Positions 3,499 to 19,040 of a stretch of DNA of 64,000 nucleotides are shown here, piece after piece. Position 1 is the first letter of the stretch; every line of letters starts with the position of its first letter. The notes under the pieces are model-generated. The model was not told where the DNA came from. It worked only from the letters and a program-made list of their open reading frames with translations, and did no database searches. The position numbers were made by a program, and so were the translations under genes. This stretch comes from Escherichia coli (GTDB lineage Bacteria; Pseudomonadota; Gammaproteobacteria; Enterobacterales; Enterobacteriaceae): the NCBI RefSeq assembly GCF_965641715.1, contig NZ_OZ282453.1. One strand, 5' to 3'.

Positions 3499-4269
3499 GT
3501 GCCTGGTTTGAAGATTACGCTTTTGCAGCAACCACTGGTGTGGATGGATGGTCCTGCCAACCTGCGCCATTTTGATCGTCAACTGGAAGGTATTACCGGG
3601 CGCGATGTGATCGTTCTACCGGAGATGTTTACCAGCGGCTTTGCCATGGAAGCGGCAGCTTCGTCGCTAGCGCAAGATGACGTAGTGAACTGGATGACAG
3701 CTAAAGCGCAGCAGTGCAATGCGCTGATTGCAGGCAGTGTTGCATTACAAACGGAGTCTGGTTCTGTTAACCGCTTTTTGCTGGTTGAGCCGGGCGGCAC
3801 GGTACATTTTTATGATAAGCGTCATCTGTTCCGCATGGCAGATGAGCATCTACATTATAAACCGGGCAATGCGCGAGTGATTGTGGAATGGCGCGGCTGG
3901 CGTATTTTGCCGCTGGTGTGCTACGACTTACGTTTTCCTGTGTGGTCGCGCAATCTCAACGATTATGACCTCGCCCTGTACGTCGCCAACTGGCCTGCTC
4001 CGCGCTCTCTGCACTGGCAGGCATTGCTGACGGCCCGCGCGATTGAGAATCAGGCGTATGTGGCGGGATGCAATCGCGTCGGCAGCGATGGCAACGGCTG
4101 CCATTATCGCGGTGACAGCCGGGTGATTAATCCACAAGGCGAGATTATCGCTACTGCCGACGCGCATCAGGCAACGCGCATTGATGCGGAGCTGTCGATG
4201 GTGGCATTGCGGGAATATAGAGAAAAGTTTCCGGCATGGCGGGATGCGGATGAGTTTAGGTTGTGGTGA
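3499..4269 (+). CDS. yafV: Nitrilase/omega-amidase family hydrolase YafV
   Basis: ORF 3490..4269; probable GTG start at 3499 giving [11 protein letters not shown]; carbon-nitrogen hydrolase family features and conserved position next to ivy. Confidence 0.85.
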
Positions 4270-4289
4270 GTGGGTGTTGTGTTTAGGGC

Positions 4290-4500
4290 AGGGGAGAGTC
4301 GGGGAAGACTACGAAAGCCCGCTCTCCTGCGACCACTTTTATCATAGGAGTGTGGAAGTGCTTTACCATCAATCGCGATGACGTCTTTGTCATTTGATGA
4401 ATGGCAGTCACGCATCCAGTTAATAAAGCACTCGTGAAATTATACTGAACGGATACAAGACATAACTCTAATTATGGTGTCGTGAACAGGATTACCATTT
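4290..4500 (-). mobile_element. Fragment of an ISAs1-family (H-repeat-associated) transposase gene, N-terminal portion only
   Basis: Minus-strand translation gives [40 protein letters not shown], matching the N-terminal region of H-repeat/ISAs1 transposases; truncated at both ends; ~80% identical at DNA level to 6250..6430. Confidence 0.6.
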
Positions 4501-4539: not shown

Positions 4540-5052
4540 TCATTGTGATATTTCCATCTCTGTGATTAATACCGGATAAGCATTTAATTGCAGAGTTTGC
4601 ACGAAATTATCGCAGATAACTGGCAATAACAATAACCCATCAGCCCGCTGCTGTAATACCTCCATTCGTTCTACTGATTCAACATTAACAACCAAACCAA
4701 GGGCATTTAGCGATTTAAGGATCTCCAGATGTTCACTCATCCAGCGCAGAGAAAAAGGATCATCACCAATTATAAAAACAGGCCCCCAGCCGGTTAATAA
4801 CTGGCGTTTCATTACGGAACCAGGATGAAGTCGAGTACATATTACAGGAAATACCCCCTGTTGCGATGGTTCCGATGATGTGGATAATTCAGAAATATTT
4901 TCCATTGTTAGTGAAGAATTAACATGCATTAATAATGGTGAAACAACCTCACTTTCCTTGCTAGTAATGGCTGCACTAATCTGAAAGGAAAATAACAATA
5001 TTATTACGTATAAACTCATTTTTAACATAACACATTCAATCCGTTTATTCAT
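4540..5052 (-). CDS. Hypothetical protein with N-terminal hydrophobic signal/anchor (170 aa), AT-rich
   Basis: ORF with hydrophobic N-terminus (MSLYVIILLFSFQISAAITS); low GC relative to flanks; sits between two H-repeat fragments. Function unknown. Confidence 0.4.
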   Translation of the reverse strand: MNKRIECVMLKMSLYVIILLFSFQISAAITSKESEVVSPLLMHVNSSLTMENISELSTSSEPSQQGVFPVICTRLHPGSVMKRQLLTGWGPVFIIGDDPFSLRWMSEHLEILKSLNALGLVVNVESVERMEVLQQRADGLLLLPVICDNFVQTLQLNAYPVLITEMEISQ

Positions 5053-5850: not shown

Positions 5851-6620
5851 TCACATCTTACATCTTGCCCCTGCCTTGATTATCTTATCTTTCGTTAAAA
5901 TATTAATAGCGATCTTCCGTATCCCTGAAAATAATTCTGCTGCATTTCCTCTTCTTATTTTGAAGTCGTCTTTATTCATTACCACGTCCAGATGCCAGTG
6001 CAATTTATTCTCCACTTGCCAGTGATTTCGGTTCGCTGTGGCGAACTTCTCTGCGGTTAAATCAGCAGAAATGCTATAATATCTGACCGTCATTTCGGGA
6101 TTTTTCTTTTGTTCTGCTATTATTGAGCGAAATGAGACTGCCATGCATAATTTCTTCAGCCCTTTCCATTCAAACGTAAAATCAATAAATTCATCAGAGA
6201 CATGCAAACAATATGAAGACGGGTTTTAATGACATAAATTGCTCCCTTGTGACGACTTTTATCATAAGAGTGCCGGAGCGTTTTTCCATCAATTGTAATG
6301 ACGTCTTTATCATCTGAAGAATGACAGTCACGCATCCAGTTAATAAAGCACTCATGAAATTTTTCAGGACTGATACAGGATACAACTCTGGCAATGATAT
6401 CGTGAACAGGAATACCATTTTCAAAATCACCATATCACTTCAAAAAATCGGGATGTGTTTCCCCAAATCCTCTATATCTTCCCAGCATTATGCACCAGAA
6501 ATAACGGCGCAAATAGTTAACAGATAGAATATCTGGCAATTTATGTTCCACTTTCCAGGCTTGCCTGTAATCGGGGATAATAGAAATATGTTCCATCAAT
6601 TTTTTAAGTTCCATTTTGCC
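5851..6620 (-). mobile_element. Degenerate ISAs1-family (H-repeat) element: transposase gene with internal deletion and frame disruption
   Basis: Minus strand encodes [18 protein letters not shown] ... [25 protein letters not shown] (N-terminal part, ~6620..6250) joined to the C-terminal part [12 protein letters not shown] ... [37 protein letters not shown] (ORF 5851..6207); the middle of the transposase is missing. Confidence 0.7.
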
Positions 6621-6871: not shown

Positions 6872-8965
6872 TTAACCTCGGCTCACCGTTTTCGATTCCA
6901 TCCAATAAATGACCCGGTTGGATGTGGGCTGATCGCCAACAACTTTGCCATCTGCAGAGATTAGCTTCAGCTCTTTATTAGCCTCATCACCGAAGTAAAT
7001 CATGCGGTAGCGAAAATAACCGCCCCAGGGTTCGCGTCCACCCAGCGAACTTTGCATAAACCAGGCGCGGGAGTCGTGAACCTGGTCATCATAGAGAGCC
7101 AGTAATTCAGCGCAGGGCTGAGTACGCGTTCCCGTTCCCAGTGAATCAATAAAAAATTGTGGATAGAGTCCGTCTCCCATAGCCTTAATTTGCTGATATT
7201 CTTTTGCTTCATCATCGCCATTAATCAGATACACCGGATATTTAGGAATGACATCCACAAGAATCTGAATGGCTTTCTCCATGACGCTGCCGTTAATATC
7301 GCGCGTCCATCCTTTATAATCGCTCTGAAATTCTCGGGCTGCCTCTCGCAACTGATACTGAGCATTGGTTGGGTCAAGGATAGGAATGCCCTGATTACTT
7401 TCATCAAGTGTGCCATTCCCTTTCTGCTTGTTCGCCCGCTCTTTTTCAATATTTTCCATTTGTTCTTTACGCGCTTTAGCCTCTTTATCAAGTCCATCTT
7501 TATCCAGCTGTGGCGCCTTAATATAAAAAGGTTGCACAAGAAGGCTGTTATTCGCATAGCGACCGATACGCCAGGCGGTGATCCAGCCGATCTGATCGCT
7601 AATTGCGCTTTCAAGAACCTGGGCAAGTTGATAGGAGTGATAATCTTCCCTCGTATCAATCATTTCTTCTGTACCCTGCAAGGTGGTGTTCAGCAGCGTT
7701 TGTCGCCAGATGTTGAAGCGTTTTGTTAATGAATTAGCAATCGTAAATTCCTTTACGCTAGAAGGACTCATAATTCGCAGAGGCGACACACCTTTTATTA
7801 ATGGAGTAACAAATTTAGAATAAACAGCAAGTGGTGCTCCTGAATCAAATGCAGCAAGATACATATCATGCAGTGCTATCTGAGAAAGAATTTCGCCTGA
7901 GTCACCACAGGACTTCCCCTGATCGCGAACGGGATAGCCACCACCGACATCAGAGTGCATCCCCGGATAGATAATTTCCTCTGCATTTAAAGGATAATTT
8001 CCGTCTGGACGACGGATTGAATCCAGCGGAAAGCACAGCCGCTGCTCATGCGCGGCAACGAAGTGGCGGCAGCATTTAATCAGGCCGGGAAACTGCCTCT
8101 CATCAGGGAGTTGCTGAGTACTATCGGCCCATCCCATATGACCGGCAGCGCCCGGTAAAACATGCGCCGCCCCCACAGAAGCTACGGTATCCAGCAGCCC
8201 CAAAAACTCAATACTGACAGCTAACCCGGCCAGCATCACCTGTTGCTCCTGCGGGCAAGCTAACTGAGTCAACCAGTTAACAAAAGTTCGTGCTTCCGCT
8301 GCGCCACGGGAAAATCCGTAGATAAACAGCTTTACGTTTAGCAGGCGCGGACTGGCTTGCTCTAACAGTCCCTGTAATTTTTCCAGGTAGGGGTTAATCA
8401 CATTGCGACGATTCACTTCACCAGTCATAGGCCAGGGAGCGCGCATAAGAGGAATGTGCTCTTTTGCCACATTATCATCCAGTCGCTTATGGGAAGGGTC
8501 AATGGAATAGCTCAGGGCATCCACGAGGCGTAATAATGCCCAATTAATTCGATCTTCACCACCAGTAGCGAACTCCAGCCCGCTGTTGCTGTAATCCATT
8601 TCACCTATCTTGGGAAATGGTGTGCCTACACCCGGTATATAGTAGTTAAAATATCCCTGTTCTTCTGCGTTCTGATAGGTCGTATGAAACAGTTTGGCAA
8701 TATTGATTGGGTGTCCAGGAGTGTCATTATATTCATTATTATTTGTACCATCAAAAAACAGACTAATATGCAGACTTTGATTACACGTAAAGCCAATTCT
8801 AAATCCAGCCTGTTTACTACAGTTGGTTTTGTGCTCTTCTGTTTTATTGATTTGTTTTAGGTAGTTCGCGTTTACCTGCGCTTCAGATAATATTAATCGC
8901 CCATTTTCAGGAAACGCTGGGGGGGCATAACACGGAAAAGCCAGACCACTTATTTCGCTGGACAT
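6872..8965 (-). CDS. T6SS phospholipase effector candidate, Tle1-like (DUF2235 alpha/beta hydrolase, 697 aa)
   Basis: GxSxG nucleophile motif in KLFIYGFSRGAAEARTFVNWL; last gene of a vgrG-remnant/DUF4123 cargo module; family assignment from motif and context only. Confidence 0.55.
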   Translation of the reverse strand: MSSEISGLAFPCYAPPAFPENGRLILSEAQVNANYLKQINKTEEHKTNCSKQAGFRIGFTCNQSLHISLFFDGTNNNEYNDTPGHPINIAKLFHTTYQNAEEQGYFNYYIPGVGTPFPKIGEMDYSNSGLEFATGGEDRINWALLRLVDALSYSIDPSHKRLDDNVAKEHIPLMRAPWPMTGEVNRRNVINPYLEKLQGLLEQASPRLLNVKLFIYGFSRGAAEARTFVNWLTQLACPQEQQVMLAGLAVSIEFLGLLDTVASVGAAHVLPGAAGHMGWADSTQQLPDERQFPGLIKCCRHFVAAHEQRLCFPLDSIRRPDGNYPLNAEEIIYPGMHSDVGGGYPVRDQGKSCGDSGEILSQIALHDMYLAAFDSGAPLAVYSKFVTPLIKGVSPLRIMSPSSVKEFTIANSLTKRFNIWRQTLLNTTLQGTEEMIDTREDYHSYQLAQVLESAISDQIGWITAWRIGRYANNSLLVQPFYIKAPQLDKDGLDKEAKARKEQMENIEKERANKQKGNGTLDESNQGIPILDPTNAQYQLREAAREFQSDYKGWTRDINGSVMEKAIQILVDVIPKYPVYLINGDDEAKEYQQIKAMGDGLYPQFFIDSLGTGTRTQPCAELLALYDDQVHDSRAWFMQSSLGGREPWGGYFRYRMIYFGDEANKELKLISADGKVVGDQPTSNRVIYWMESKTVSRG

Positions 8966-9504
8966 GTTGCTGGTTCCTTCATCTCGCGGGGTTCTTTGAT
9001 GGGATAATTCGGTGTGCCATACTTCTGGCAGACGGTTGTCACTTTAATCTGATTACACGTTAGAAAATGAACGGTCAGGCCACAAAGCTCAGCATCGTAT
9101 TCCGGGATATCAACAATTGCGGTATGTTGAATGTAACTTTCTTTTAGTTTTTTCTCCCAGGCCTGATATTTATCCCAATCCTTATAGAGTGGTGGCGGAG
9201 GTACTGTATTTGGGGTAATTTCCCATTCAACCTGGGCTTTTAATCCAGAATGCCACTTATCTGGCAGCATAACGCAACAATATCCTCCACCGTCTCCGAA
9301 TGGACCAATATTTGGTCCGCCGTAACCATTGATGTGTATATAATTTATATCCTTATCCGTATGATTTATCCCATTAATATCCACAGCAGTGTAATCACCG
9401 CTATTTTTTGCCATTGAACAGCCTGATACTGCAAATAAAATCATTAGAGAATAACATTTGAAAATCGTTCTCATACTGATACTTTTCCTTATTTTGCTGG
9501 ACAT
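8950..9504 (-). CDS. Small lipoprotein, candidate Tle immunity protein (Tli-like)
   Basis: Lipobox-type signal peptide MRTIFKCYSLMILFAVSGC if translation starts at ATG 9474 (ORF track start 9504); 16 nt overlap with the start of the Tle1-like gene. Confidence 0.45.
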   Translation of the reverse strand: MSSKIRKSISMRTIFKCYSLMILFAVSGCSMAKNSGDYTAVDINGINHTDKDINYIHINGYGGPNIGPFGDGGGYCCVMLPDKWHSGLKAQVEWEITPNTVPPPPLYKDWDKYQAWEKKLKESYIQHTAIVDIPEYDAELCGLTVHFLTCNQIKVTTVCQKYGTPNYPIKEPREMKEPATCPAK

Positions 9505-9817
9505 GTTGCTGGTTCTTTTACTTTGAGAGATTTTAATTGATGGGTATTGTTTCTACGACAATAAAGTTTTGACAAAGAAGCAAATAAAATGCATATCTTT
9601 CGATTGTCACACATTGGAATATCGACAGAGCATTGATGATATTACGCAAAATATATTGCAGCCAAGTGAACTGACATTACGATCGAACACAAATGCAACA
9701 TGATGGATACTACCATTACATGTCGAGCTTGATTTTCCGTTTATTTCACGATTATCTCTTGATATTAACAGCTACGGACTTTTAAACAGATAAATCTCCC
9801 CGTACATCACCACAATA

Positions 9818-10588
9818 TTATCCTTCGAAGTCCCGCAAAGCTCCGAAATATTTCGCGTCATTGGCTCTGAAAGCAATATCAAGACAGTGGGCAAAATAGC
9901 TTTCCTGACTGAGTTCACTGACTGCTTTCTCCTTCATCAGGACTTCAGCGTCGCAGATACAGCCCATCAATCCCACCTGTACATCATCCACCCGATTCAT
10001 CTCCGGGTTGTCAGTAAGCCTGCGTTCTGGTGAAAAACTTCCTGATTTCCAGTTAATCTCACCATCACGGTCTAACCAGCTCCAGAACAACGCAATATCA
10101 GTAAATGTCGCCTGCTGCTCGTTAGTCAAAACATGTGTGAACAGTAAAGGGAACACCCGATTATCATAGTAACGCAGCAATCCGGTCTGTTCTTCCCACT
10201 GAACCTGTGACAATACCTGAAGATGCCGCCCCAGCAGGTCGAATGTAAGAGGGGATATCAACAAAGTAAGACGCGGCGTATCAGCAAATGACGCCATCAG
10301 TTGTGCCAGAAATTTGCGATGGCTACTGAGCGCAAAGTACAGGCGTAACACTACAGGGGAATACTCCATCGTCTCAGCTTCAGGCGTTCCTTCAAACAGG
10401 GCATACCAGTGAATGGCTGGCCACAGATGAAGTATCTCATTTTGCAAAGGTTGGTCGGTTCCAGCCTGGTCAACAAGCACATCTATGTAATCCAAACCAG
10501 CGGCAGAACAGAATGATTCAGCCTGCTTCAGCCAGATAATATATTTGTCTTGATCGGTAGCGCGTGGCGATACTGTTATCATCGTCAT
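9818..10588 (-). CDS. DUF4123-family T6SS effector adaptor/chaperone (Tap/Tec-like)
   Basis: 256 aa; N-terminal YIDVLVDQAG and central LLRYYDNRVFPLL resemble the DUF4123 signature segments (compare YAIVDGA / LMRFYDPRNIWVL in ORF 18198..19040); immediately follows a vgrG tail. Confidence 0.55.
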   Translation of the reverse strand: MTMITVSPRATDQDKYIIWLKQAESFCSAAGLDYIDVLVDQAGTDQPLQNEILHLWPAIHWYALFEGTPEAETMEYSPVVLRLYFALSSHRKFLAQLMASFADTPRLTLLISPLTFDLLGRHLQVLSQVQWEEQTGLLRYYDNRVFPLLFTHVLTNEQQATFTDIALFWSWLDRDGEINWKSGSFSPERRLTDNPEMNRVDDVQVGLMGCICDAEVLMKEKAVSELSQESYFAHCLDIAFRANDAKYFGALRDFEG

Positions 10589-10594
10589 TCTCCC

Positions 10595-11051
10595 TTATCC
10601 ACGAGGCGCAAAAGCGGCGGCGGCTTCCTGCGCCCTTTTCAGGCACTCCTTACACACCGATTTTTCTGGCGCTTCCTCACCCTCATCGTTGTTATCATTC
10701 TGATCGGACGATGCATTACTATCATTTTGCTCAGCCGCTAAACTTTTATCATCTGCCAGCGCTTTCAGAACCGCCGGTTGCAGCGTCGGCACCGGCGTTC
10801 CCGGACTACCGCCGCTATTGAGATTGATTTTCGGCCCGACGATGTCCACGCCCCCTGAATGGATGACCACAAACGAACCGCCCACCTTCAGGCTTATCCG
10901 GCTGCTGCTCTCCAGCACCACATCGCCCTCCACCTTTAACCACGCCACCGCAGTCAATGGCATCACCGGTTCTGGCGGTAGGTTTATCGTCGATAAAGGC
11001 GGAAGAGGTGTTTCCGGCTCTTAAGAAATATTTACGCACATGCACCAGCAT
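10595..11051 (-). pseudogene. Remnant fusing the 3' end of a PAAR gene to the 3' tail of a vgrG gene (internal deletion)
   Basis: One frame encodes FIDDKPTARTGDAIDCGGVV (PAAR C-terminus, compare PAAR 15133..15417); the adjacent frame encodes LKVEGDVVLESSSRISLKVGGSFVVIHSGGVDIVGPKINLNSGG (VgrG tail, compare vgrG2) followed by an acidic linker. Confidence 0.6.
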
Positions 11052-11082: not shown

Positions 11083-11859
11083 TCAATAAGGTTGCTTTAC
11101 CAAGCTTCCATCGATATTGATGGAAAATTCATTAGACCTAATATGAACAGAATGTTGCTCATCATCTTTATCTAATATTTGATTAACAAAAAAAAACGTA
11201 TTTTTATCAAATTCATAATTATCACATCCCTCTCCACTAAATGATATAGCTCTAAAATCATATTCATTACATGAGTATCTTTTCATCAAAATAGAGAGGA
11301 ATGTTTCATTAATTGATTTTAATACAAACCATTTTCTCCTAACAAGTTTGTAGTTTAATGTTTTTATATGATAATTATTTAAACTGGGGAGAAATGAATG
11401 CATATCATTCAATTTTACATCAAAAGATATTTTTTTACCTGCCGTAATTTCCACCCATCGGCTCAAATTCAAATCAAGCTCAAAGGGACAAAAGCCTCCT
11501 AGATAGTCTAAGCTAATATTTCCTGATGTAATCAAGAATTCGTCATCACACAAAGCATCAAATACATCTCCATTTCCTTTTTGGAAGTTCTTTGGATAAT
11601 ATATTCTGGGGAGAAAATACGATTTAGTACTACTGTTATAAAAAGTTATAGTAGCTAAAATATTTTCAGCATGTGGCTTAACCACCAATTTAACAACAAC
11701 ATCATTTGTTAATTCATTACTTATATTTTCCTCTGGCGCTAAATTATGGCTAAGATAAATAATTGGTTTCCCATTGTCACTTCTTCGTTCAAAACCGAAT
11801 CTGTATTTTTTTACAAAAAGATTCTCATTATCTATTGCAATTGCAATAGATAATGGCAA
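11083..11859 (-). CDS. Hypothetical protein, candidate immunity protein for the upstream metallopeptidase-like effector; N-terminal signal peptide is out of frame
   Basis: Body ORF starts at TTG 11859; a 31-codon ORF from ATG 11923 (one nt after the effector stop) encodes MKRLAFYNLNYVVLMVFFSLFFAIIYCNCNR in the other frame; the two frames would join if one base were removed from the homopolymer tract. Confidence 0.45.
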   Translation of the reverse strand: MPLSIAIAIDNENLFVKKYRFGFERRSDNGKPIIYLSHNLAPEENISNELTNDVVVKLVVKPHAENILATITFYNSSTKSYFLPRIYYPKNFQKGNGDVFDALCDDEFLITSGNISLDYLGGFCPFELDLNLSRWVEITAGKKISFDVKLNDMHSFLPSLNNYHIKTLNYKLVRRKWFVLKSINETFLSILMKRYSCNEYDFRAISFSGEGCDNYEFDKNTFFFVNQILDKDDEQHSVHIRSNEFSINIDGSLVKQPY

Positions 11860-11924
11860 AAAACAAAGAAAAAAAAACCATCAGTACAACATAATTTAGA
11901 TTATAGAAAGCCAACCTCTTCATC

Positions 11925-12728
11925 TTATTTCCCCGTCAACTCATCAAAACATTTTTCTATCTCTTTTATTTTATCCTCTACTTTTTTTGCTAACATATTC
12001 TCATCTTGAGCTTCAATATCTTCATCATTTAATTTTATATAAAAATATCTTTCAACATTATATGCATTCTCAAATAACTGATCTTTACGCAATGTAACCA
12101 GATCATTAGCCACTGAAACATGTTTCTCATAGCTAACTTCATCCTTATTACTTGTTGCGAACTTATTAATACCCGTATAATCCTGAGTCCACATACCACC
12201 TTTTTGATTGTCACCCCAATACCAAAATATATGGGACATTTCATGGCAAAGTGTACTTACATGAGAGTCTCTACCTGTAACCGACTGTTTTATACCATGT
12301 CTGTATTCAAAATGCGCTCCGATATTTACAATGTAAGGAGGATCAAGATGTGGACTAATAAAAGCAGCAAATTCATTGCAGTTCGTATAATCTTTATAGC
12401 TTTCGATCGTCAAACCATTTGCAATCGTCATTATTCGTCTGATGCCATCCATTATGAATAGTCTCGCTTGCATTCGTTTCCCAGTATCTTCCCCAACTTT
12501 TCTGATTTTTATAATGTCCTCGCCTTTAAGGCCAAAAACTTTAATAAAATCTCGTTGTTGTTCCCCCTCCCATGACATAATATCATCTGCTCTTTTCAAT
12601 AAAACCATTTTCTGTGCTTTACAAGCCTTACTCATCATTATTTTAAATTTATTTGTAATTTTTTGCGGTACTACACATACTTGCGACTCGGGTTGTGAAG
12701 TCCCACTAGTATTATTATTCCCTGCCAT
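11925..12728 (-). CDS. HExxH zinc-metallopeptidase-like T6SS effector candidate (268 aa)
   Basis: HEMSH motif followed by WTQDYTG (loosely aspzincin-like); start ATG at 12728 (MAGNNNTSG) overlaps the vgrG2 stop; the longer ORF 11925..13103 is not used because it overlaps vgrG2. Confidence 0.55.
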   Translation of the reverse strand: MAGNNNTSGTSQPESQVCVVPQKITNKFKIMMSKACKAQKMVLLKRADDIMSWEGEQQRDFIKVFGLKGEDIIKIRKVGEDTGKRMQARLFIMDGIRRIMTIANGLTIESYKDYTNCNEFAAFISPHLDPPYIVNIGAHFEYRHGIKQSVTGRDSHVSTLCHEMSHIFWYWGDNQKGGMWTQDYTGINKFATSNKDEVSYEKHVSVANDLVTLRKDQLFENAYNVERYFYIKLNDEDIEAQDENMLAKKVEDKIKEIEKCFDELTGK

Positions 12729-15114
12729 AATGCCCCTCCGGCTCAATATAAAAAGCATCCGAAAATAACAATTGGACTTTAATTTCCTGTGCTGTATCTG
12801 TATAAAATATTTCTGTATATCCCTCTCTGTCTGTTTCACCACGCGTCTGTGTGCCATCCTCAAAAAAGGCAATATACTGCGTCTCTGAATACGGTATCCC
12901 GTCATCGTCCGTAAAATGGAACTGGAGGGTATATTTTTCAGGATCATCTTCATCGTCACCGCCATCACCTCCTCCGTCACTCCCTGCGGGATTGCCACTA
13001 TCCTCTCCGGAGTCATCACTGCCATCATCACTGCTCTCATCCTCCGGAGCCTCCAGCACCGCCGGCTGCATCGTCCCCACCGGTGTCCCCGCACTGCCCC
13101 CACCGTTCAGGTTTATCTTCGGCCCGGCAATATCCACTCCGCCCGGCTGAATGACGATAAACGAGCCACCCACCTTCAGGCTTATCCGGCTGCTGCTCTC
13201 CAGCACGATATCCCCGTCCACTTTTATCCCCAGCGCGCCACTCACCTTCTCCGCCAGGTCCCCCTTCACCTCCAGGCTGTGCTTCCCCTCCACCAGGCTG
13301 ATGTGGTTACCCGTCGTCTTATGCTCCTGCTTCCCTTTCACCGTCACCCTACGGTCATTTCTGACGTACAGACCGTCATCGTGACTCACGCTCACCGTCC
13401 GGTCATTTGTCACCTTCAGCGTCTGGTCGTTACGTACCGTTATGCTCCGGTCGTTCGCCACCGTGATACTCTGGTCGTGGCCTCCTTCTTTTCTGGTCCC
13501 GACCTCAACCGTCTGCCCCTTCACCACCGTTATCTTCTGGTCGTTACCAATGGTCTCCGTATGGTCATGTTTCACATCCGTTGTCCGGTCGTTGAGCACC
13601 TCCGTATCCATGTTCTTCTGCGCATGGATATACACCTGCTCATTACTGGTGGCGTCCTCAAAGCGCAACTCGTTAAATCCGCTTCCTTTATAGGTCTTCG
13701 ACCGTATCGTCATCTGCGTCTTCGTCCCCGGCAGGCTCCCCGGCGAACGGTTGTCCTCATGGTACGTCCGGCCCATGACCAGCGGCTGGTCCGGGTCTCC
13801 GTTCAGGAAGTCAACAATCACCTCCTGACCCACCCGCGGTATCGCCAGGTTACCAAACCCCGGCCCCGCCCACGCCTGTGATACCCGCACCCAGCATGAA
13901 CTCGCCTCCGTCATCCCGTGATAACGGTCCCAGTGGAACTTCACCCGTACCCGGCCATGTTCGTCGCAGAATATCTCCTCACCCTTCGGCCCGGTGACAA
14001 TGGCGCTCTGCGGCCCGTCCACCTTCGGTTTGCTTTGCAGCCGTGGACGCCACGTCCGGTCCGCCGGTATCACCTCTAACTGATTTCCCAGCGTGGTTCC
14101 TCTCCCCTGGCTGCCGTGCAGCGCCTGCGGCTGGCTTCCTGACAGTATGCTCTGTACCACCTGCCATTCACGGTTCAGCATCTTCTGCGGATGCCCCGTC
14201 AGCGTAAACCGCGTTCCCGGCCACAGCCTCGGCGAATTACTCTGCCCTGTGGCCTTTTCCGCATCACTGCGCAGGCTCTCCATCTGGTACAGCGTGAAAT
14301 CCTTGCCGTGCTGCTCATCCTTGAACCTTCCCGGATAATCAAATATCTCGTACTGCGCCAGCTGTCCGTTCAGGTTCTCACCCTGCTGCTCATACATCCC
14401 CGGCCAGTCCGGCACCTTAAACGTGTAATCCTGGCTCTGCACCGACGACGGGCGGACATGCGCCTCATAACGGAACATACTGAGACACTCCGTCTCCGCT
14501 CCTGCCGATGTGTCCGGGTTAAACGGAAGCTCTCCCGCCTGTGACAGCCCCGCCACATCGTCGCACAGCGTCAGCTTCTGCTCCGGACTGTCCGCCGCAA
14601 ACCGCTCAAAGAAGAAAATTCCTTCTTCCGCCCACAGCCGAGCCAGAAACGCCAGGTCGCTCTCCCCGTACTGGACACAGAACTCCCGCGCCGGATGGTC
14701 TTCATAAAACAGCGGAGTCCACTCCGTGACGCCGTTCTCGTTCAGTAACGTGGCCGATATCGTCCGGATATCCTGCTGCTGAAAAATACGAAAGTTCTGC
14801 CGCAGCCCGCACCGCCATAACGGCGGCTCAATACGCAGGTGATAACGCATCTGCCAGCCGTTGTTCTCCTGCATGCCAAAGCCCGCCACCACGCCGGTGA
14901 CATAACGCTGCGCCACCGCGCCCTGCCAGATGGCCAGCGTCGCCTTCTTCTCCAGCAGCATCTCCGCCGTCTGCATAAAAGAGTCGCTGGCAACATCCAC
15001 ACTCATCACAAACGGATAAGACTGGTTCTGGATTAACCTGAAATTCACCACTGCAAAGGTGTCCGGCTCCTGGCCGTCAATCTCCAGCGTAAAGCGCAGA
15101 CCGTTTAAGGACAT
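12715..15114 (-). CDS. vgrG: VgrG spike protein with C-terminal extension (799 aa)
   Basis: N-terminal 480 aa identical to the vgrG at 19037..20995; gp27/gp5-like repeats (VKGDLAEKVSG..., ISLKVGGSF...); acidic D/E/G/S linker and an extra ~60 aa C-terminal domain. Confidence 0.9.
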   Translation of the reverse strand: MSLNGLRFTLEIDGQEPDTFAVVNFRLIQNQSYPFVMSVDVASDSFMQTAEMLLEKKATLAIWQGAVAQRYVTGVVAGFGMQENNGWQMRYHLRIEPPLWRCGLRQNFRIFQQQDIRTISATLLNENGVTEWTPLFYEDHPAREFCVQYGESDLAFLARLWAEEGIFFFERFAADSPEQKLTLCDDVAGLSQAGELPFNPDTSAGAETECLSMFRYEAHVRPSSVQSQDYTFKVPDWPGMYEQQGENLNGQLAQYEIFDYPGRFKDEQHGKDFTLYQMESLRSDAEKATGQSNSPRLWPGTRFTLTGHPQKMLNREWQVVQSILSGSQPQALHGSQGRGTTLGNQLEVIPADRTWRPRLQSKPKVDGPQSAIVTGPKGEEIFCDEHGRVRVKFHWDRYHGMTEASSCWVRVSQAWAGPGFGNLAIPRVGQEVIVDFLNGDPDQPLVMGRTYHEDNRSPGSLPGTKTQMTIRSKTYKGSGFNELRFEDATSNEQVYIHAQKNMDTEVLNDRTTDVKHDHTETIGNDQKITVVKGQTVEVGTRKEGGHDQSITVANDRSITVRNDQTLKVTNDRTVSVSHDDGLYVRNDRRVTVKGKQEHKTTGNHISLVEGKHSLEVKGDLAEKVSGALGIKVDGDIVLESSSRISLKVGGSFIVIQPGGVDIAGPKINLNGGGSAGTPVGTMQPAVLEAPEDESSDDGSDDSGEDSGNPAGSDGGGDGGDDEDDPEKYTLQFHFTDDDGIPYSETQYIAFFEDGTQTRGETDREGYTEIFYTDTAQEIKVQLLFSDAFYIEPEGHYGRE

Positions 15115-15527: not shown

Positions 15528-16538
15528 TCAAGTAACAGGGATAAACTGACCATCAATCAGCGAAAATACCGGAGCGTAATACCCCATACGCTCTTCACCA
15601 CTTTCATCTGTAAAACGGTAAGTCAGTGGGGAATACGTTGGCATTGATTTATTATATAATTGCACCATACGCCCATTATTCATAACCCGGACGGCATAAT
15701 CGTTCCACCTGATAGGCAGTATTTTGGCTTTTCCACCCTCAAGGTTATCTTTCGGAAAGTGGGAGAGTAATATGTCATCCTCAGAGTCACCGGTTGTGGC
15801 TGACCATGCCTTCAGCGCCTCTGTGTTATATAACTTAAGACGTGCTCTGTCCCCGCTGTTAATAATTGTTGCCATTTCGGTATAGGTGGCTTTTAACTTC
15901 CGTAGCTGCTCGTCGCTTCCGGTATAGGGGGTTGCCCGCGTCCAGGCCCATTCAGGAAGCCCCGTCACCGTGACTTTTTGTGTAAACTGATACACCTTCA
16001 TCCCTTTCGGAAAATAGGTTTCATCAAAATAATCTGGATCTATAAATCCTGGCTCCGCCTGCTCTGCCAGGATCTCTTTCCTGATAACGGGATGCACGCT
16101 GTCTGACCGGGCTTCAGGTATGCCCTGCTGGTTGATGGTCACTTTTATCGAAGAAAGCAGGGTTTCTTCCTGTTTAATAAAACGAACCAAATCCAGGCTG
16201 CACCCTGCTTTTTGGAAAAAACGCCCCCGTTCTTCCGTACTGGCAGGCTTGTCAGAAAACCATCCTAACGCCCCGATTTCCAGACTGATTTCATTTTCTC
16301 CATTCGCCATCAGCATCATGGCATTGGTGCTGGATATGGCCCCGGTGGAATCACCATTCTCTCGCCATGCGTTCATTCGGTTACTGAAGCCGAGGACACC
16401 GTTGGTTTTGATGGCACAATATGATTCCTCAATATTAAACTTACTGCGGATTTTTTGTGGATTTTCACCCGAGTACAATCCTGCTCCCATAATACCTCCT
16501 GACAGTAAAATAACCGATATTAAATGTTTTACCTTCAT
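15528..16538 (-). CDS. Secreted hypothetical protein (336 aa), candidate immunity protein for the 523 aa effector
   Basis: N-terminal signal/anchor MKVKHLISVILLSGGIMGAGLYSG; immediately downstream of the effector candidate. Confidence 0.45.
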   Translation of the reverse strand: MKVKHLISVILLSGGIMGAGLYSGENPQKIRSKFNIEESYCAIKTNGVLGFSNRMNAWRENGDSTGAISSTNAMMLMANGENEISLEIGALGWFSDKPASTEERGRFFQKAGCSLDLVRFIKQEETLLSSIKVTINQQGIPEARSDSVHPVIRKEILAEQAEPGFIDPDYFDETYFPKGMKVYQFTQKVTVTGLPEWAWTRATPYTGSDEQLRKLKATYTEMATIINSGDRARLKLYNTEALKAWSATTGDSEDDILLSHFPKDNLEGGKAKILPIRWNDYAVRVMNNGRMVQLYNKSMPTYSPLTYRFTDESGEERMGYYAPVFSLIDGQFIPVT

Positions 16539-16604
16539 AATTATTTTCTCTTAAAAGGAAAAGACTCTCATTATATTGAGTGATTTTAATTGCTGTAATA
16601 TCAC

Positions 16605-18176
16605 TTAATAATCCATGCCTATTGTCCACGTTGTCACTGGCTTCGGCGGTATTACTTTTTTCTCTACCGTGCGTTCTTTACCGTATAAATTAACCCGCAA
16701 TGGTGAATCTTTTATCTCCATAGGATCACATAACTGCCACTCAACGGTATCTTTCTTCTCGGGTTTCTCACTCTTTTCTTTCCCCTTTCCCTTCCCTTTA
16801 CTTTCACCATAAGATACATCCGCCTTAAATTCGAACTTTCCTTTAATGCCGTCATGAAATAATGCCAGGTCCAGTCCGTCATCATGTGAATCGAATCCAA
16901 AGCCAGCTTTCGCCTCTATAGAAGCGGTCGCTTCTGCGGTCAGTTGTACAACAAAAACATTCGCCTCAAACGTCGCACTCACCACACCTTTTAAACCGAG
17001 CTTGATGTTACTTTCCTTTACATTAAACTCCCATTTTTTATCCTTTTCAGCGTATACTGCGCCAAGATCAAGATTAATCTCCGCTGAAATCTCGATATAG
17101 CATTCAACACTGGCTCCGTTTTTACGGAGATATTCACGACATCTGTTGACCAATGACTCGACTTTACAGTATGCACATATAAATGAAATAATATCGAATC
17201 TGAACGACGCTTCAAAAAATGGGGCACCAAACAAACCATAAAAATGACAGGGGCCATCCTGGATATCGGTATATTGATAGGCATACGATATACCCAGTTT
17301 AACGGGTTCTATTTTTGCACTGAACAATGCATATTTGCGCGTACCATTATTATTGTCAGGATCTGGCGCAAAATATTTATTGACATTCTTGACCAGAGAG
17401 TCAATTCTTCCTATCTGTTCCAGTTGCTTTGTTTGTCGAAGTTTTTTTATCTCTTTTTCATATTCACTTGTGTGTTCAACATTAGCTATTTTTACGCCAA
17501 AATCGACAGTCAGGGAAGTCTTGTTTATCCACTCAAACTCAGCAGTGGTATTTGTCCAGCCGCTACGGAGTTTATTTTTATCCCTGGGCTTGGTGTTCTC
17601 CATTGCGTCCCTGGCTTTTATTCTTTCGTCACGCCGCTCTTTTACTGTTCGCGTCTGTTTTGATGACGAAATCTCATAGCTGAACCCTGTAGTAAACCTA
17701 ATTTCCATTGTAGGATAAACATCAATTTCAACATAATTGCCACATTCGTAACAACTGTCAATTCTGACTGAATAATGGGCAGGTTCATAATGATTCTTAA
17801 GTGGAGAGGATATTGCCCCCAAATAATCCCATGGTACGCGAAATGTACCCATAGCAATTATTTCACCTTCAGACAAGTTATCATCCAAAGTGACCTTATT
17901 AGGTATTCCGAAAGGTTGCAGTATCTTATGATTATTTTCTGATTCTTCCTCTAACCATGCCTCATGTGTTCCACTTTTATCGCACTGGTAGGTAATGGTA
18001 ATTATACCATCACATCCGGAACCATCATCCAGTAGCTTAAAACGCGCCACTCCTTCTTTTGACCAGAAATGTTTCTCGCCGGCCTCTGGAAAATCACTAA
18101 TAACATCAAAAATACATGGATCAGGTATGCCGCATTCCACACAGGGCTTTCCGGCTGTCGAAGATGGAGATGTCAT
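16605..18176 (-). CDS. Unassigned T6SS effector candidate (523 aa), DUF4123-adaptor dependent
   Basis: Follows vgrG1 and a DUF4123 adaptor; no catalytic motif recognised; lysine-rich low-complexity stretch (KGKGKGKEKSEKPEKK) near the C-terminus. Confidence 0.5.
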   Translation of the reverse strand: MTSPSSTAGKPCVECGIPDPCIFDVISDFPEAGEKHFWSKEGVARFKLLDDGSGCDGIITITYQCDKSGTHEAWLEEESENNHKILQPFGIPNKVTLDDNLSEGEIIAMGTFRVPWDYLGAISSPLKNHYEPAHYSVRIDSCYECGNYVEIDVYPTMEIRFTTGFSYEISSSKQTRTVKERRDERIKARDAMENTKPRDKNKLRSGWTNTTAEFEWINKTSLTVDFGVKIANVEHTSEYEKEIKKLRQTKQLEQIGRIDSLVKNVNKYFAPDPDNNNGTRKYALFSAKIEPVKLGISYAYQYTDIQDGPCHFYGLFGAPFFEASFRFDIISFICAYCKVESLVNRCREYLRKNGASVECYIEISAEINLDLGAVYAEKDKKWEFNVKESNIKLGLKGVVSATFEANVFVVQLTAEATASIEAKAGFGFDSHDDGLDLALFHDGIKGKFEFKADVSYGESKGKGKGKEKSEKPEKKDTVEWQLCDPMEIKDSPLRVNLYGKERTVEKKVIPPKPVTTWTIGMDY

Positions 18177-18197
18177 ATAATCTATCCGTTTGTCTTT

Positions 18198-19040
18198 TTA
18201 TTGCGGGATAAATCCCAGTTCCTGTTGTGCAAGTTCATGTACCCGAATATGTCCCGGGTATGACTGATTGCTGAGTTGTTCATACCAGTCATCCGGAATA
18301 TATCTGAGATCGATTATATTTTTTTTCAGTAATATAAGCGTCATTGTTCTGACGGAACGATCATCTGCTATATTTAATGACTGGCAAAAAGAGAAATAAT
18401 CTTCTGCCAGAATTCGGGATGATTCAGCTTTTGATAAATCATCCCATCCGTCTTTATCTACATTTTCTTCGATAAATGCAGATAATATATCAAGATAATT
18501 ATCCCGTGCCTTTCGTTCCAGTTGGCTATATTGTCTGTAACTCAGCGTCAGTTGTGATGGCCGTTCTGCCCTTATATTCATAGTTTCTGCGGGACGGACG
18601 GAAGAAAAATTATCCTCACGACATTCTTCACCATAGCGGGTACTTAGCTGTCTGACGGGGCTGATAAAAGAAAGAAGCTGGCGGGGGGTCAGAACTTCCG
18701 CTAATACCCATATATTCCGGGGATCATAAAATCGCATGAGAACAGGTTTCTCCTGTTCGGGGATCATAACCCACAGATAACGTCTGAAGTGTTGCTGTAG
18801 CTCACGTATGGATGACTCAGAAGTAAGATATATTCCCCACGGCGACGCCTTATCACTCAGCCATGCTTCAACTTCCGGAACAACCTCCACGAGATAAGGG
18901 GCCAGCGCGACCAGATCCGGTTGTATGGGTTCTGCATACAGACAACAGTGCGGGGGATTCACCTCGTTCAGAAAATCCAGCAATCCTTCCTCCACAGCGC
19001 CATCCACAATGGCGTACTGCACGGGTGCCGTTTCCATCAC
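18198..19040 (-). CDS. DUF4123-family T6SS effector adaptor/chaperone
   Basis: YAIVDGA near the N-terminus and LMRFYDPRNIWVL in the middle; 4 nt overlap with the vgrG1 stop. Confidence 0.65.
   Translation of the reverse strand: MMETAPVQYAIVDGAVEEGLLDFLNEVNPPHCCLYAEPIQPDLVALAPYLVEVVPEVEAWLSDKASPWGIYLTSESSIRELQQHFRRYLWVMIPEQEKPVLMRFYDPRNIWVLAEVLTPRQLLSFISPVRQLSTRYGEECREDNFSSVRPAETMNIRAERPSQLTLSYRQYSQLERKARDNYLDILSAFIEENVDKDGWDDLSKAESSRILAEDYFSFCQSLNIADDRSVRTMTLILLKKNIIDLRYIPDDWYEQLSNQSYPGHIRVHELAQQELGFIPQ

What the first reader, a model, noticed from the sequence alone, without database searches (positions are those of the whole stretch)
8941..9520. Duplicated 27 bp translation-start block shared by the Tle1-like gene and the upstream lipoprotein gene
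ttatttcgctggacatgttgctggttc (8950..8976) and ttattttgctggacatgttgctggttc (9480..9506) are near-identical, so both genes begin MSS(E/K)I with the same upstream context. This looks like a scar of cassette insertion or exchange, with the lipoprotein gene placed in front of the effector by recombination at the start region. It also places the putative immunity gene upstream of its effector, with a 16 nt overlap.
Basis: seen in the sequence. Interest (0 to 1): 0.45.

Follow-up and report, generated by a model that had tools for sequence, protein, structure and literature searches.

The report
Joint of a tandem immunity-gene array
The duplicated 27-base block is the conserved stop/start overlap that links copies of a type VI secretion immunity gene (tli1a) to each other and to the toxin gene tle1. 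It is an ordinary product of gene duplication and homologous recombination, not the scar of a foreign cassette insertion.

Summary
The repeat is real: 26 of 27 bases match, at 8950-8976 and 9489-9515. On the coding (minus) strand the block reads GAACCAGCAACATGTCCAGCRAAATAA. That is the last codons of the lipoprotein Tli1a (EPATCPAK*), overlapping by 16 nt the first five codons of the next gene (MSS[E/K]I).

The locus is vgrG fragment, tla1 (DUF4123), tli1a (DUF3304), tle1, an arrangement already described in Pseudomonas aeruginosa. In ten related E. coli loci the number of junction copies is always the number of tli1a units plus one, with 0 to 3 units.

One strain has no tli1a, a single exact hybrid junction and a frameshifted tle1. 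Two near-identical loci keep different single units. Pantoea, Rahnella, Hafnia and Superficieibacter have the same array (1-5 units) and the same overlapped junction, in which the MKEP codons supply the Shine-Dalgarno sequence.

The upstream copy in the window ends a 42-56 nt relic of a tli1a 3' end, next to a 302-nt AT-rich spacer. The block occurs only at this locus, in 69 of 5,426 E. coli genomes.

Verdict: an ordinary recombining tandem immunity array. The insertion-scar reading is only partly right. Interest is low.

The parts
8950..8976 (-). Junction J1. It holds the last 9 codons of tli1a (EPATCPAK, then the stop codon). These overlap the tle1 start by 16 nt (ATG at 8965-8963). The AAGGAA Shine-Dalgarno sequence lies just upstream, at about 8978-8983.
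9489..9515 (-). Junction J0. It has the same 27-mer with 1 mismatch, at the 3' end of the tla1-tli1a spacer. It contains the ATG at 9504-9502, which opens the long tli1a ORF. The Shine-Dalgarno position here reads AAAGAA, a degraded form.
9489..9544 (-). Relic of a tli1a 3' end. It includes J0, has a 2-nt indel and is no longer in an open frame upstream of KEPATCPAK*.
   Evidence: 56-nt local alignment; nhmmer with a tli1a profile, positions 501-542, E 3.6e-5
8950..9504 (-). tli1a, the immunity lipoprotein (DUF3304). The ORF is 184 aa from the ATG at 9504, or 174 aa from the ATG at 9474 (the start PGAP uses in strain A30). The lipobox is LFAVSG|C.
   Evidence: NF053804, 211 bits against a cutoff of 110; PF11745, 4e-28
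6872..8965 (-). tle1, the T6SS phospholipase effector. It is 697 aa, intact, and carries a GFSRG (GxSxG) motif.
   Evidence: PDB 4o5p, E 3.4e-117; PF09994 and PF22137
9516..9817 (-). The 302-nt AT-rich (34% GC) spacer between tla1 and J0. Apart from its last ~30 nt it is not recognisably related to tli1a.
9818..10588 (-). tla1, the DUF4123 adaptor/chaperone for Tle1.
   Evidence: NF053803, 220 bits against a cutoff of 200
10595..10966 (-). A C-terminal fragment of the vgrG gene that originally headed the tla1-tli1a-tle1 module. The N-terminal part is missing.
   Evidence: PGAP: incomplete VgrG; the full-length gene is present in NC101-type loci

Best explanation
The 27-mer is the inter-unit joint of a tandem array of tli1a immunity genes that lies between tla1 and tle1.

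Each tli1a gene ends ...M-K-E-P-A-T-C-P-A-K-stop. The next gene, either another tli1a or tle1, starts at an ATG inside the T-C codons. The two genes therefore overlap by 16 nt, and the M-K-E codons (ATGAAGGAA/G) act as the Shine-Dalgarno sequence for that ATG. This implies translational coupling of immunity to toxin.

Because the joint is carried by every unit, an array of n units has n+1 copies of it. The window has one unit and so two copies. The upstream copy (J0) is the tail of a former tli1a 3' end that now abuts a non-coding spacer.

Homologous recombination between these joints, and between the conserved 3' parts of the paralogues, expands, trims and reshuffles the array. The window's one-unit state most likely arose by such deletions from a multi-unit array.

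Shown: the anatomy, the n+1 rule, the hybrid junction of the unit-less strain, and conservation across genera.

Inferred: the direction of the events (deletion), translational coupling, and recombination as the mechanism.
For: 1. Gene identity. Tli1a family NF053804 scores 211 bits against a cutoff of 110, and Tla1 NF053803 scores 220 against 200. Pfam finds DUF3304 and the Tle1 domains. Tle1 matches the P. aeruginosa Tle1 structure 4o5p at E 3e-117.

2. The n+1 rule.
- 2018-05-2CC: 0 units, 1 junction.
- Window, A30 and PapRG-04-4: 1 unit, 2 junctions.
- FDAARGOS_944 and FEX669: 2 units, 3 junctions.
- N96, NC101, SCU-124 and ChlosBP-23-1: 3 units, 4 junctions.

3. Census of 69 E. coli genomes with the locus (60 listed). 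By span, 51 have 3 units, 7 have 1, one has 2 and one has 0.

4. The 0-unit strain. Its flanks are at least 98% identical to the flanks of the one-unit and three-unit loci, and its tle1 differs from the window's at 14 of 2,094 positions. Its single junction is an exact hybrid: tle1-side flank, the 27-mer, then the spacer-side flank. Its tle1 is frameshifted by a 1-nt deletion in a run of seven C at nt 41.

5. Exchange between constant flanks. PapRG-04-4 keeps the tle1-proximal unit type, while the window keeps the type closest to NC101 unit 2 (89%). FEX669 has a unit-2/unit-3 hybrid gene.

6. Other genera. Pantoea, Rahnella, Hafnia and Superficieibacter all have vgrG-tla1-[tli1a]x1-5-tle1. The junction motif ATGAAGGAGCC..C..CATGTCC.G is the same, with 13- or 16-nt overlaps.

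7. Relic. A tli1a DNA profile matches the end of the E. coli spacer (E 3.6e-5) and a relic in the Superficieibacter spacer (E 1e-8).

8. J0 is not specially conserved. Window and NC101 agree at 22/27 in J0, against 94% in the spacer, 98.6% in tla1 and 99% in tle1. This fits a junction rebuilt by recombination.

9. Locus-specific. A 61-nt query spanning the junction finds only the same 69 of 5,426 genomes, at 1-4 places each, all chromosomal.

10. Published layout. The order vgrG4a-tla1-tli1b-tli1a-tle1, with immunity genes upstream, is described in PMC13133936.
Against: - Apart from its last 42-56 nt, the 302-nt spacer shows no significant similarity to any tli1a gene. A whole decayed upstream unit is therefore not demonstrated. 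J0 could instead result from gene conversion, or from a crossover that copied an internal junction onto an older relic.
- The direction of change (deletion from three units, or expansion from one) is inferred from outgroups and from the pseudogene state. It is not shown by a rooted phylogeny.
- Translational coupling and the start codon actually used (9504 or 9474) are untested.
- All recombination events are inferred from end products. None has been observed.
Confidence: 0.85

Rival explanations
1. Insertion scar. A mobile or exchanged cassette carrying the lipoprotein gene was inserted at the start of tle1 and duplicated its translation-start block, as a target-site duplication would.
For: The unit is bounded by direct repeats. 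A genome without the unit and with a single copy of the block exists.
Against: - The block is the coding 3' end of the unit itself (EPATCPAK*). It recurs at every joint between paralogous units.
- The same array and junction are present in four other genera and the layout is published for P. aeruginosa, so immunity upstream of tle1 is ancestral.
- The 'empty' strain has a frameshifted tle1 and flanks 98-99.7% identical to those of filled loci, which marks it as derived.
- The unit has no transposase, integrase or terminal inverted repeats.
Confidence: 0.04
2. J0 is kept by selection because it is the working translation-initiation region of the first tli1a gene, with the true start at 9504 (MSSKIRKSIS...). 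On this view it is not a mere relic.
For: - The junction ATG is in frame with the signal peptide in all three E. coli unit types and in every unit of the other genera.
- In Hafnia and Rahnella it opens the signal peptide directly (MSGLRFVF...). NC101 unit 1 has no internal ATG.
- The region around the start is unstructured as RNA.
Against: - In the window the Shine-Dalgarno position of J0 reads AAAGAA instead of AAGGAA.
- An internal ATG at 9474 has its own AAGGAA 11 nt upstream, and PGAP chose that start in strain A30.
- J0 is the least conserved segment between the two E. coli locus lineages (22/27, against 94-99% for the flanks).
- This reading is compatible with the main explanation. It concerns only whether J0 is still used.
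Confidence: 0.5
3. The junction is a site for a dedicated site-specific recombination system, integron-like, that shuffles immunity cassettes.
For: Three of the four inferred events have their crossover within or beside the junction: the 0-unit strain, PapRG-04-4 and the window lineage.
Against: - No recombinase gene lies in the module.
- There is no inverted repeat or hairpin at the junction.
- One event, in FEX669, has its crossover inside the gene.
- The junction and the adjoining 3' region are simply the longest near-identical stretch between otherwise 65-90% identical paralogues, which is where ordinary homologous recombination would occur.
Confidence: 0.03
4. Chance similarity of two start regions.
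For: None.
Against: The match is 26/27, against an expected chance count of about 1e-9 in this window (my estimate). The same pairing recurs at every unit boundary in ten E. coli loci and four other genera.
Confidence: 0

Closest known systems
Pseudomonas aeruginosa vgrG4a-tla1-tli1b-tli1a-tle1 locus (PA3294-PA3290; J Biol Chem 2026, PMC13133936)
   Same: - The gene families and their order are the same: a DUF4123 adaptor, then one or more DUF3304 outer-membrane lipoprotein immunity genes upstream of tle1.
- One paralogue is often a pseudogene.
- Tle1 is clearly homologous (PDB 4o5p, E 3e-117).
   Different: - In the window the vgrG is only a fragment, there is a single tli1a unit, and a 302-nt spacer precedes it.
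- The paper does not discuss the overlapped junction or copy-number variation (0 occurrences of 'overlap').
- I could not inspect the P. aeruginosa junction sequence.
Tandem or 'orphan' immunity-gene arrays next to T6SS effectors. Examples: several DUF3304 genes per Tle1 in Xanthomonas (PMC6653060) and Klebsiella (PMC12469244); Burkholderia thailandensis Tle1 with several immunity genes and Vibrio cholerae auxiliary-cluster orphan immunity genes (the last two from my own knowledge).
   Same: Several paralogous immunity genes sit beside one effector. The copy number and the set of paralogues vary between strains, and some copies decay.
   Different: Here the joints can be read base by base. The result is an n+1 set of identical stop/start overlaps, an exact hybrid junction in a strain that lost all units, and a terminal relic.
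EAEC Sci-1 Tle1/Tli1 pair
   Same: It is a Tle1-family phospholipase with a lipoprotein immunity protein and a second, truncated immunity gene nearby (as summarised in PMC13133936).
   Different: - The EAEC Tle1 structure is only distantly related to this Tle1 (6sjl, E 6e-7).
- From my own knowledge, EAEC tli1 lies downstream of tle1 and is not a DUF3304 protein. I did not test this here.
Translationally coupled overlapping genes in bacterial operons (general knowledge)
   Same: The upstream stop codon lies a few bases after the downstream start, and the downstream Shine-Dalgarno sequence is embedded in the upstream coding sequence.
   Different: The overlap is 16 nt, longer than the common 1- or 4-nt overlaps. 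It is conserved across at least five genera and is repeated at every array joint.

Membership tests
Tli1a family immunity protein (NCBIfam NF053804) / DUF3304 (Pfam PF11745) | Whole-protein score above the curated cutoff, with the DUF3304 domain present | tested here: met
   NF053804 scores 211 bits against a cutoff of 110, covering profile positions 2-155 of 155. PF11745 matches at 4e-28 over positions 1-97 of 97.
Tli1a family immunity protein | Lipoprotein signal peptide with a lipobox, and no Asp at +2 (outer-membrane sorting) | tested here: met
   Read directly from the translation...YSLMILFAVSG|CS. The lipobox is V-S-G-C and the +2 residue is Ser. No dedicated signal-peptide predictor was available.
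Tli1a family immunity protein | Encoded next to a Tle1 effector, between tla1 and tle1 | tested here: met
   The order is tla1 (10588-9818), tli1a (9504-8950), tle1 (8965-6872).
Tli1a family immunity protein | Binds Tle1 and neutralises it | not testable with these tools
   There is only circumstantial evidence: the one E. coli genome without any tli1a has a frameshifted tle1.
T6SS phospholipase effector Tle1 | Tle1 catalytic and C-terminal domains, a GxSxG motif, and homology to a solved Tle1 structure | tested here: met
   PF09994 (1.4e-13 and 5e-7) and PF22137 (1e-56) match. PDB 4o5p matches at E 3.4e-117 over residues 11-677. GFSRG is seen in the translation.
Tla1 (DUF4123 Tle1 chaperone, NF053803) | Score above the curated equivalog cutoff | tested here: met
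   220.2 bits against a cutoff of 200.
Tandem gene array shaped by homologous recombination | Head-to-tail paralogous units with a constant joint, n+1 joints for n units, and copy number varying between otherwise identical loci | tested here: met
   0-3 units in E. coli; 1-5 units in other genera.
Tandem gene array shaped by homologous recombination | Rearrangements depend on the homologous-recombination machinery (recA) or on homology length | not testable with these tools
   This needs genetics. The only support here is that the crossover points fall in the most identical segments.
Mobile-element insertion with target-site duplication | The direct repeats are duplicated target DNA outside the element, and the element has its own ends or a transposase | tested here: not met
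   The repeat is the unit's own coding 3' end and recurs between paralogues. No terminal inverted repeats or transposase belong to the unit.
Integron-type gene cassette | An attC-like imperfect palindrome at the cassette boundary and an integrase nearby | tested here: not met
   No inverted repeat lies at the junction. The junction RNA or DNA folds less stably than its shuffles. No integrase is present in the module.

The most novel reading that the evidence does not exclude
The overlapped joint, which codes in two frames, is more than a by-product. On this reading it is a selected, portable 'cassette joint'. It couples translation of each immunity gene to the next gene and finally to the toxin. 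Because it is the one segment kept near-identical among otherwise divergent paralogues, it also directs recombination to exact unit boundaries. Whole immunity genes can then be swapped, added or dropped without breaking any reading frame. The terminal relic J0 would be retained as the upstream anchor for such exchanges.
Probability: 0.12. Interest if true: 0.4.

Novelty: new member of a known kind. Interest (0 to 1): 0.15.

Why it matters
The significance is modest.

- It explains a puzzling repeat as the normal joint of a T6SS immunity-gene array.
- It shows at base resolution how E. coli strains trim and reshuffle their Tle1 immunity repertoire, from 0 to 3 units between identical flanks.
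- It offers a natural example in which loss of all immunity genes goes together with inactivation of the toxin.
- It exposes inconsistent start-codon annotation of tli1a in RefSeq, where the junction ATG and an internal ATG are both used.

No new kind of element or mechanism is implied.

Tried and rejected
- **Whole spacer as a decayed tli1a unit.** I ran local alignments of the 302-nt spacer against four tli1a genes, with 300 shuffles each, and none was significant. blastn and tblastx against the four outgroup loci found only the junction. A visual resemblance between the spacer's 5' end and the Hafnia/Rahnella signal-peptide region is not statistically supported. Only the last 42-56 nt are tli1a-derived.
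- **RNA structure that hides the tle1 start, as a coupling hairpin.** Both junctions fold less stably than their shuffles.
- **Known RNA families.** Rfam gave no match up to E = 1 in 8500-10700.
- **Internal promoter or terminator in the spacer.** Five promoter-like sites were found against 3.7 ± 1.7 in shuffles, and no terminator. This is uninformative.
- **Generic repeated element.** The junction occurs only at this locus in E. coli and only twice in the window.
- **A four-unit array in ChlosBP-23-1.** The four annotated DUF3304 CDS are three units, one of them split by a frameshift.
- **The 125-nt length difference in some three-unit loci.** It is an insertion in the spacer that looks like an ERIC/IRU repeat. 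It is not extra tli1a relic.
- **Solved structure for Tli1a.** None was found by sequence.
Full report
**1. The observation**

The two quoted 27-mers are present and differ at one base. The first lies at 8950-8976, as stated. The second lies at 9489-9515, not 9480-9506, so its coordinates are off by 9. The copies are 539 nt apart.

Ungapped similarity extends to 31 nt (8949-8979 and 9488-9518, 94%). With a 2-nt indel, weaker similarity extends to about 56 nt. Allowing up to five mismatches, no other copy exists on either strand of the window. A 26/27 match is far beyond chance; I estimate about 1e-9 expected in 128 kb.

On the minus strand both copies read GAACCAGCAACATGTCCAGC(G/A)AAATAA. ORFs start at the internal ATG in both: tle1 at 8965 and the lipoprotein ORF at 9504. 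The lipoprotein stop codon (8950-8952) lies 16 nt inside tle1.

**2. The genes**

Reading the minus strand, the order is as follows.

- A C-terminal vgrG fragment, 10966-10595.
- tla1, 10588-9818. It is a DUF4123 protein (NCBIfam NF053803, 220 bits against a cutoff of 200).
- A 302-nt spacer with 34% GC.
- tli1a, 9504-8950. It matches NF053804 (211 bits against 110) and Pfam DUF3304 (4e-28), and its lipobox is LFAVSG|C.
- tle1, 8965-6872. It has the Pfam Tle1 catalytic and C-terminal domains, matches PDB 4o5p at E 3e-117, and carries a GFSRG motif.

RefSeq annotates the near-identical locus of E. coli A30 in the same way.

The gene order vgrG-tla1-tli1-tle1, with the immunity genes upstream of the toxin, has been described experimentally for P. 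aeruginosa. There Tli1a is an outer-membrane lipoprotein that binds Tle1 (PMC13133936). An immunity gene upstream of its effector is therefore normal for this Tle1 subfamily.

**3. What the 27-mer is**

In one frame it encodes the last residues of Tli1a, E-P-A-T-C-P-A-K-stop. In another frame, from the ATG inside the T-C codons, it encodes the first five codons of the following gene, M-S-S-(E/K)-I.

Just upstream, the M-K-E codons of Tli1a read ATGAAGGAA. This places AAGGA 9 nt before that ATG, which is a good Shine-Dalgarno position.

**4. Comparison within E. coli**

The locus occurs in 69 of 5,426 complete E. coli genomes, always on the chromosome. In the ten loci I read, junction copies always number one more than tli1a units.

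| Strains | tli1a units | Junction copies |
|---|---|---|
| 2018-05-2CC | 0 | 1 |
| Window, A30, PapRG-04-4 | 1 | 2 |
| FDAARGOS_944, FEX669 | 2 | 3 |
| N96, NC101, SCU-124, ChlosBP-23-1 | 3 | 4 |

I also took a census from the distance between the tle1 and tla1 flanks in the 60 listed genomes. It gives 51 with three units, 7 with one, one with two and one with none.

The units are true paralogues, 65-97% identical. Their signal-peptide region and last ~55 codons are conserved, and their central third is variable.

The 61-nt junction region is found only in those same 69 genomes, at 1-4 places each.

**5. Evidence for recombination at the joints**

- *The unit-less strain.* Strain 2018-05-2CC has a single exact hybrid junction: the tle1-side flank, the 27-mer, then the spacer-side flank. 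Its flanks are 98-99.7% identical to those of one-unit and three-unit loci. Its tle1 is frameshifted by loss of one C in a run of seven at nt 41. The toxin is therefore dead in the one genome that lacks all immunity genes.
- *Different units between near-identical flanks.* PapRG-04-4 and the window each keep one unit, but a different one. PapRG-04-4 keeps the tle1-proximal type (MSSKIRNGMNITK...). The window keeps the type closest to NC101 unit 2 (89% identity, against 69% to unit 3).
- *A crossover inside the gene.* FEX669 carries a unit-2/unit-3 hybrid gene, so crossovers also occur within the conserved 3' part of the genes.
- *J0 is not specially conserved.* Between the window-type and NC101-type lineages, J0 is the least conserved segment. 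It matches at 22/27, against 94% for the spacer, 98.6% for tla1 and 99% for tle1. The window's J0 is identical to an internal NC101 junction. This fits a joint rebuilt by a crossover and does not fit a specially conserved site.

From general knowledge (Shen and Huang 1986), 23-27 bp of identity is about the minimum for efficient RecA-dependent recombination in E. coli. The junction meets that length.

**6. Comparison outside E. coli**

A scan of 100,044 species genomes with Tle1 returned four loci, from Pantoea, Rahnella, Hafnia and Superficieibacter, with Tle1 67-71% identical. All have vgrG-tla1-[tli1a]n-tle1, with n = 1, 3, 5 and 1 respectively.

Every joint has the same motif...ATGAAGGAGCC..C..CATGTCC.G.... 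The tli1a/tle1 overlap is 16 nt, and the tli1a/tli1a overlaps are 13 or 16 nt. The array and its overlapped joint are therefore ancestral to these Enterobacterales, and the E. coli unit-less state is derived.

In Hafnia and Rahnella the first unit follows tla1 directly, with no spacer. In Superficieibacter a ~330-nt spacer contains a clear relic of a tli1a 3' end (nhmmer E 1e-8). The same profile matches the last 42 nt of the E. coli spacer (E 3.6e-5).

The rest of the E. coli spacer shows no significant similarity to tli1a. I therefore claim only a 42-56 nt relic, not a whole decayed gene.

**7. Mechanism proposed**

*Shown:*
- The block is the stop/start overlap of a tandem immunity array.
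- Copy number varies between constant flanks.
- Junction hybrids exist.

*Inferred:*
- Translation of each downstream gene, including tle1, is coupled to translation of the preceding tli1a through the embedded Shine-Dalgarno sequence and the overlapped start.
- Array length changes by homologous recombination or slippage between joints and between the conserved 3' segments.
- The window's one-unit array descends from a longer one. The truncated vgrG upstream supports this, because it suggests a decaying module under relaxed selection.

**8. Which start does tli1a use?**

For the ATG at 9504:
- The junction ATG is in frame with the signal peptide in all unit types and in all genera.
- It is the only possible start in Hafnia and Rahnella units and in NC101 unit 1.
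- The region is unstructured as RNA.

For the ATG at 9474:
- In the window's J0 the Shine-Dalgarno sequence has degraded to AAAGAA.
- The internal ATG has its own AAGGAA 11 nt upstream.
- PGAP chose this start in A30.

This cannot be settled by computation. I put it at about even, slightly favouring 9504.

**9. Rivals rejected**

- *Target-site duplication or foreign-cassette insertion.* The repeat is the unit's own coding end, and no mobile-element features belong to the unit.
- *Integron-like site-specific recombination.* There is no palindrome, no hairpin and no integrase, and one crossover lies inside a gene.
- *An RNA element.* No Rfam match and no stable fold.
- *Chance.* See section 1.

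**10. Novelty and score**

The gene families, their order and the existence of multiple DUF3304 immunity genes per Tle1 are all known (PMC13133936; PMC6653060; PMC12469244).

The base-level description of the joint, the n+1 rule and the natural deletion series in E. coli are tidy, but a specialist would expect them. I file this as a new member of a known kind, with interest 0.15.

The most novel reading not excluded is that the joint is a selected, frame-preserving recombination and coupling module. I give that about 0.12.

Noticed in passing
window 10595-10966 (-): Only a 123-codon C-terminal fragment remains of the vgrG that heads the tla1-tli1a-tle1 module. Its tail, ...CKECLKRAQEAAAAFAPRG, is conserved at the end of the full-length VgrG upstream of tla1 in Pantoea, Hafnia and Superficieibacter. 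Without its own spike protein, Tle1 may not be deliverable in this strain.
   Followed up: partly
window 15528-20995 (-): There is a third VgrG module: vgrG (652 aa, 20995-19037), a DUF4123-like gene (19040-18198), a 523-aa putative effector (18176-16605) and a 336-aa protein with a signal-like N-terminus (16538-15528). It is absent from the otherwise near-identical strain A30 locus, which accounts for about 5.9 kb of extra sequence. The two full-length VgrGs are almost identical over their first ~450 residues.
   Followed up: partly
window 11083-13103 (-): An M35-family metallopeptidase effector (HEMSH motif, about 11925-12728) overlaps the end of the 799-aa VgrG. It is followed by a 258-aa hypothetical protein (11859-11083) with no family match, which may be its immunity protein.
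   Followed up: no
window 4167-4415 and 5851-6614 (-); 4540-5052 (-): Downstream of tle1 there are decayed ISAs1-family transposase fragments. There is also a gene for a PFL_4695-family integrating-conjugative-element protein (TIGR03765, 2e-35). These suggest junk or mosaic DNA at the yafV end of the T6SS island.
   Followed up: partly
tli1a codons ~96-131 (window about 9110-9220); L003, L004, L013 units: The central third of Tli1a falls into three sharply different sequence types, while both ends are conserved. This might be the Tle1-contacting or specificity region. Different single-unit strains keep different types next to nearly identical tle1 genes.
   Followed up: partly
L010-L013 unit 1 (e.g. 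L013 2718-3282): In the common three-unit (NC101-type) loci, the tla1-proximal tli1a unit is frameshifted in all four loci I read. RefSeq annotates it variously as a pseudogene or as two short CDS. This made ChlosBP-23-1 appear to have four genes.
   Followed up: yes
L012 (SCU-124) about 3585-3710, inside the tla1-tli1a spacer: A 125-nt insertion is present in a subset of three-unit loci (the 4429-4434 nt spans). From memory, its sequence (...GAATCCCCAGGAGCGTGCATAAGTACGTGACTGGGGTGAGTGAACGCAGCCAACGCAG...) looks like an ERIC/IRU intergenic repeat.
   Followed up: partly
RefSeq annotations of tli1a: Start-codon choice is inconsistent between copies. Some copies are annotated from the overlapped junction ATG (543-558 nt CDS). 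Others are annotated from an internal ATG 30 nt downstream (525-528 nt CDS).
   Followed up: partly
window 31693-34425 (+) vs L014 10764-13496: tssH (clpV) is an intact 910-codon ORF in the window, but it is annotated with an internal stop in the closely related strain A30.
   Followed up: partly
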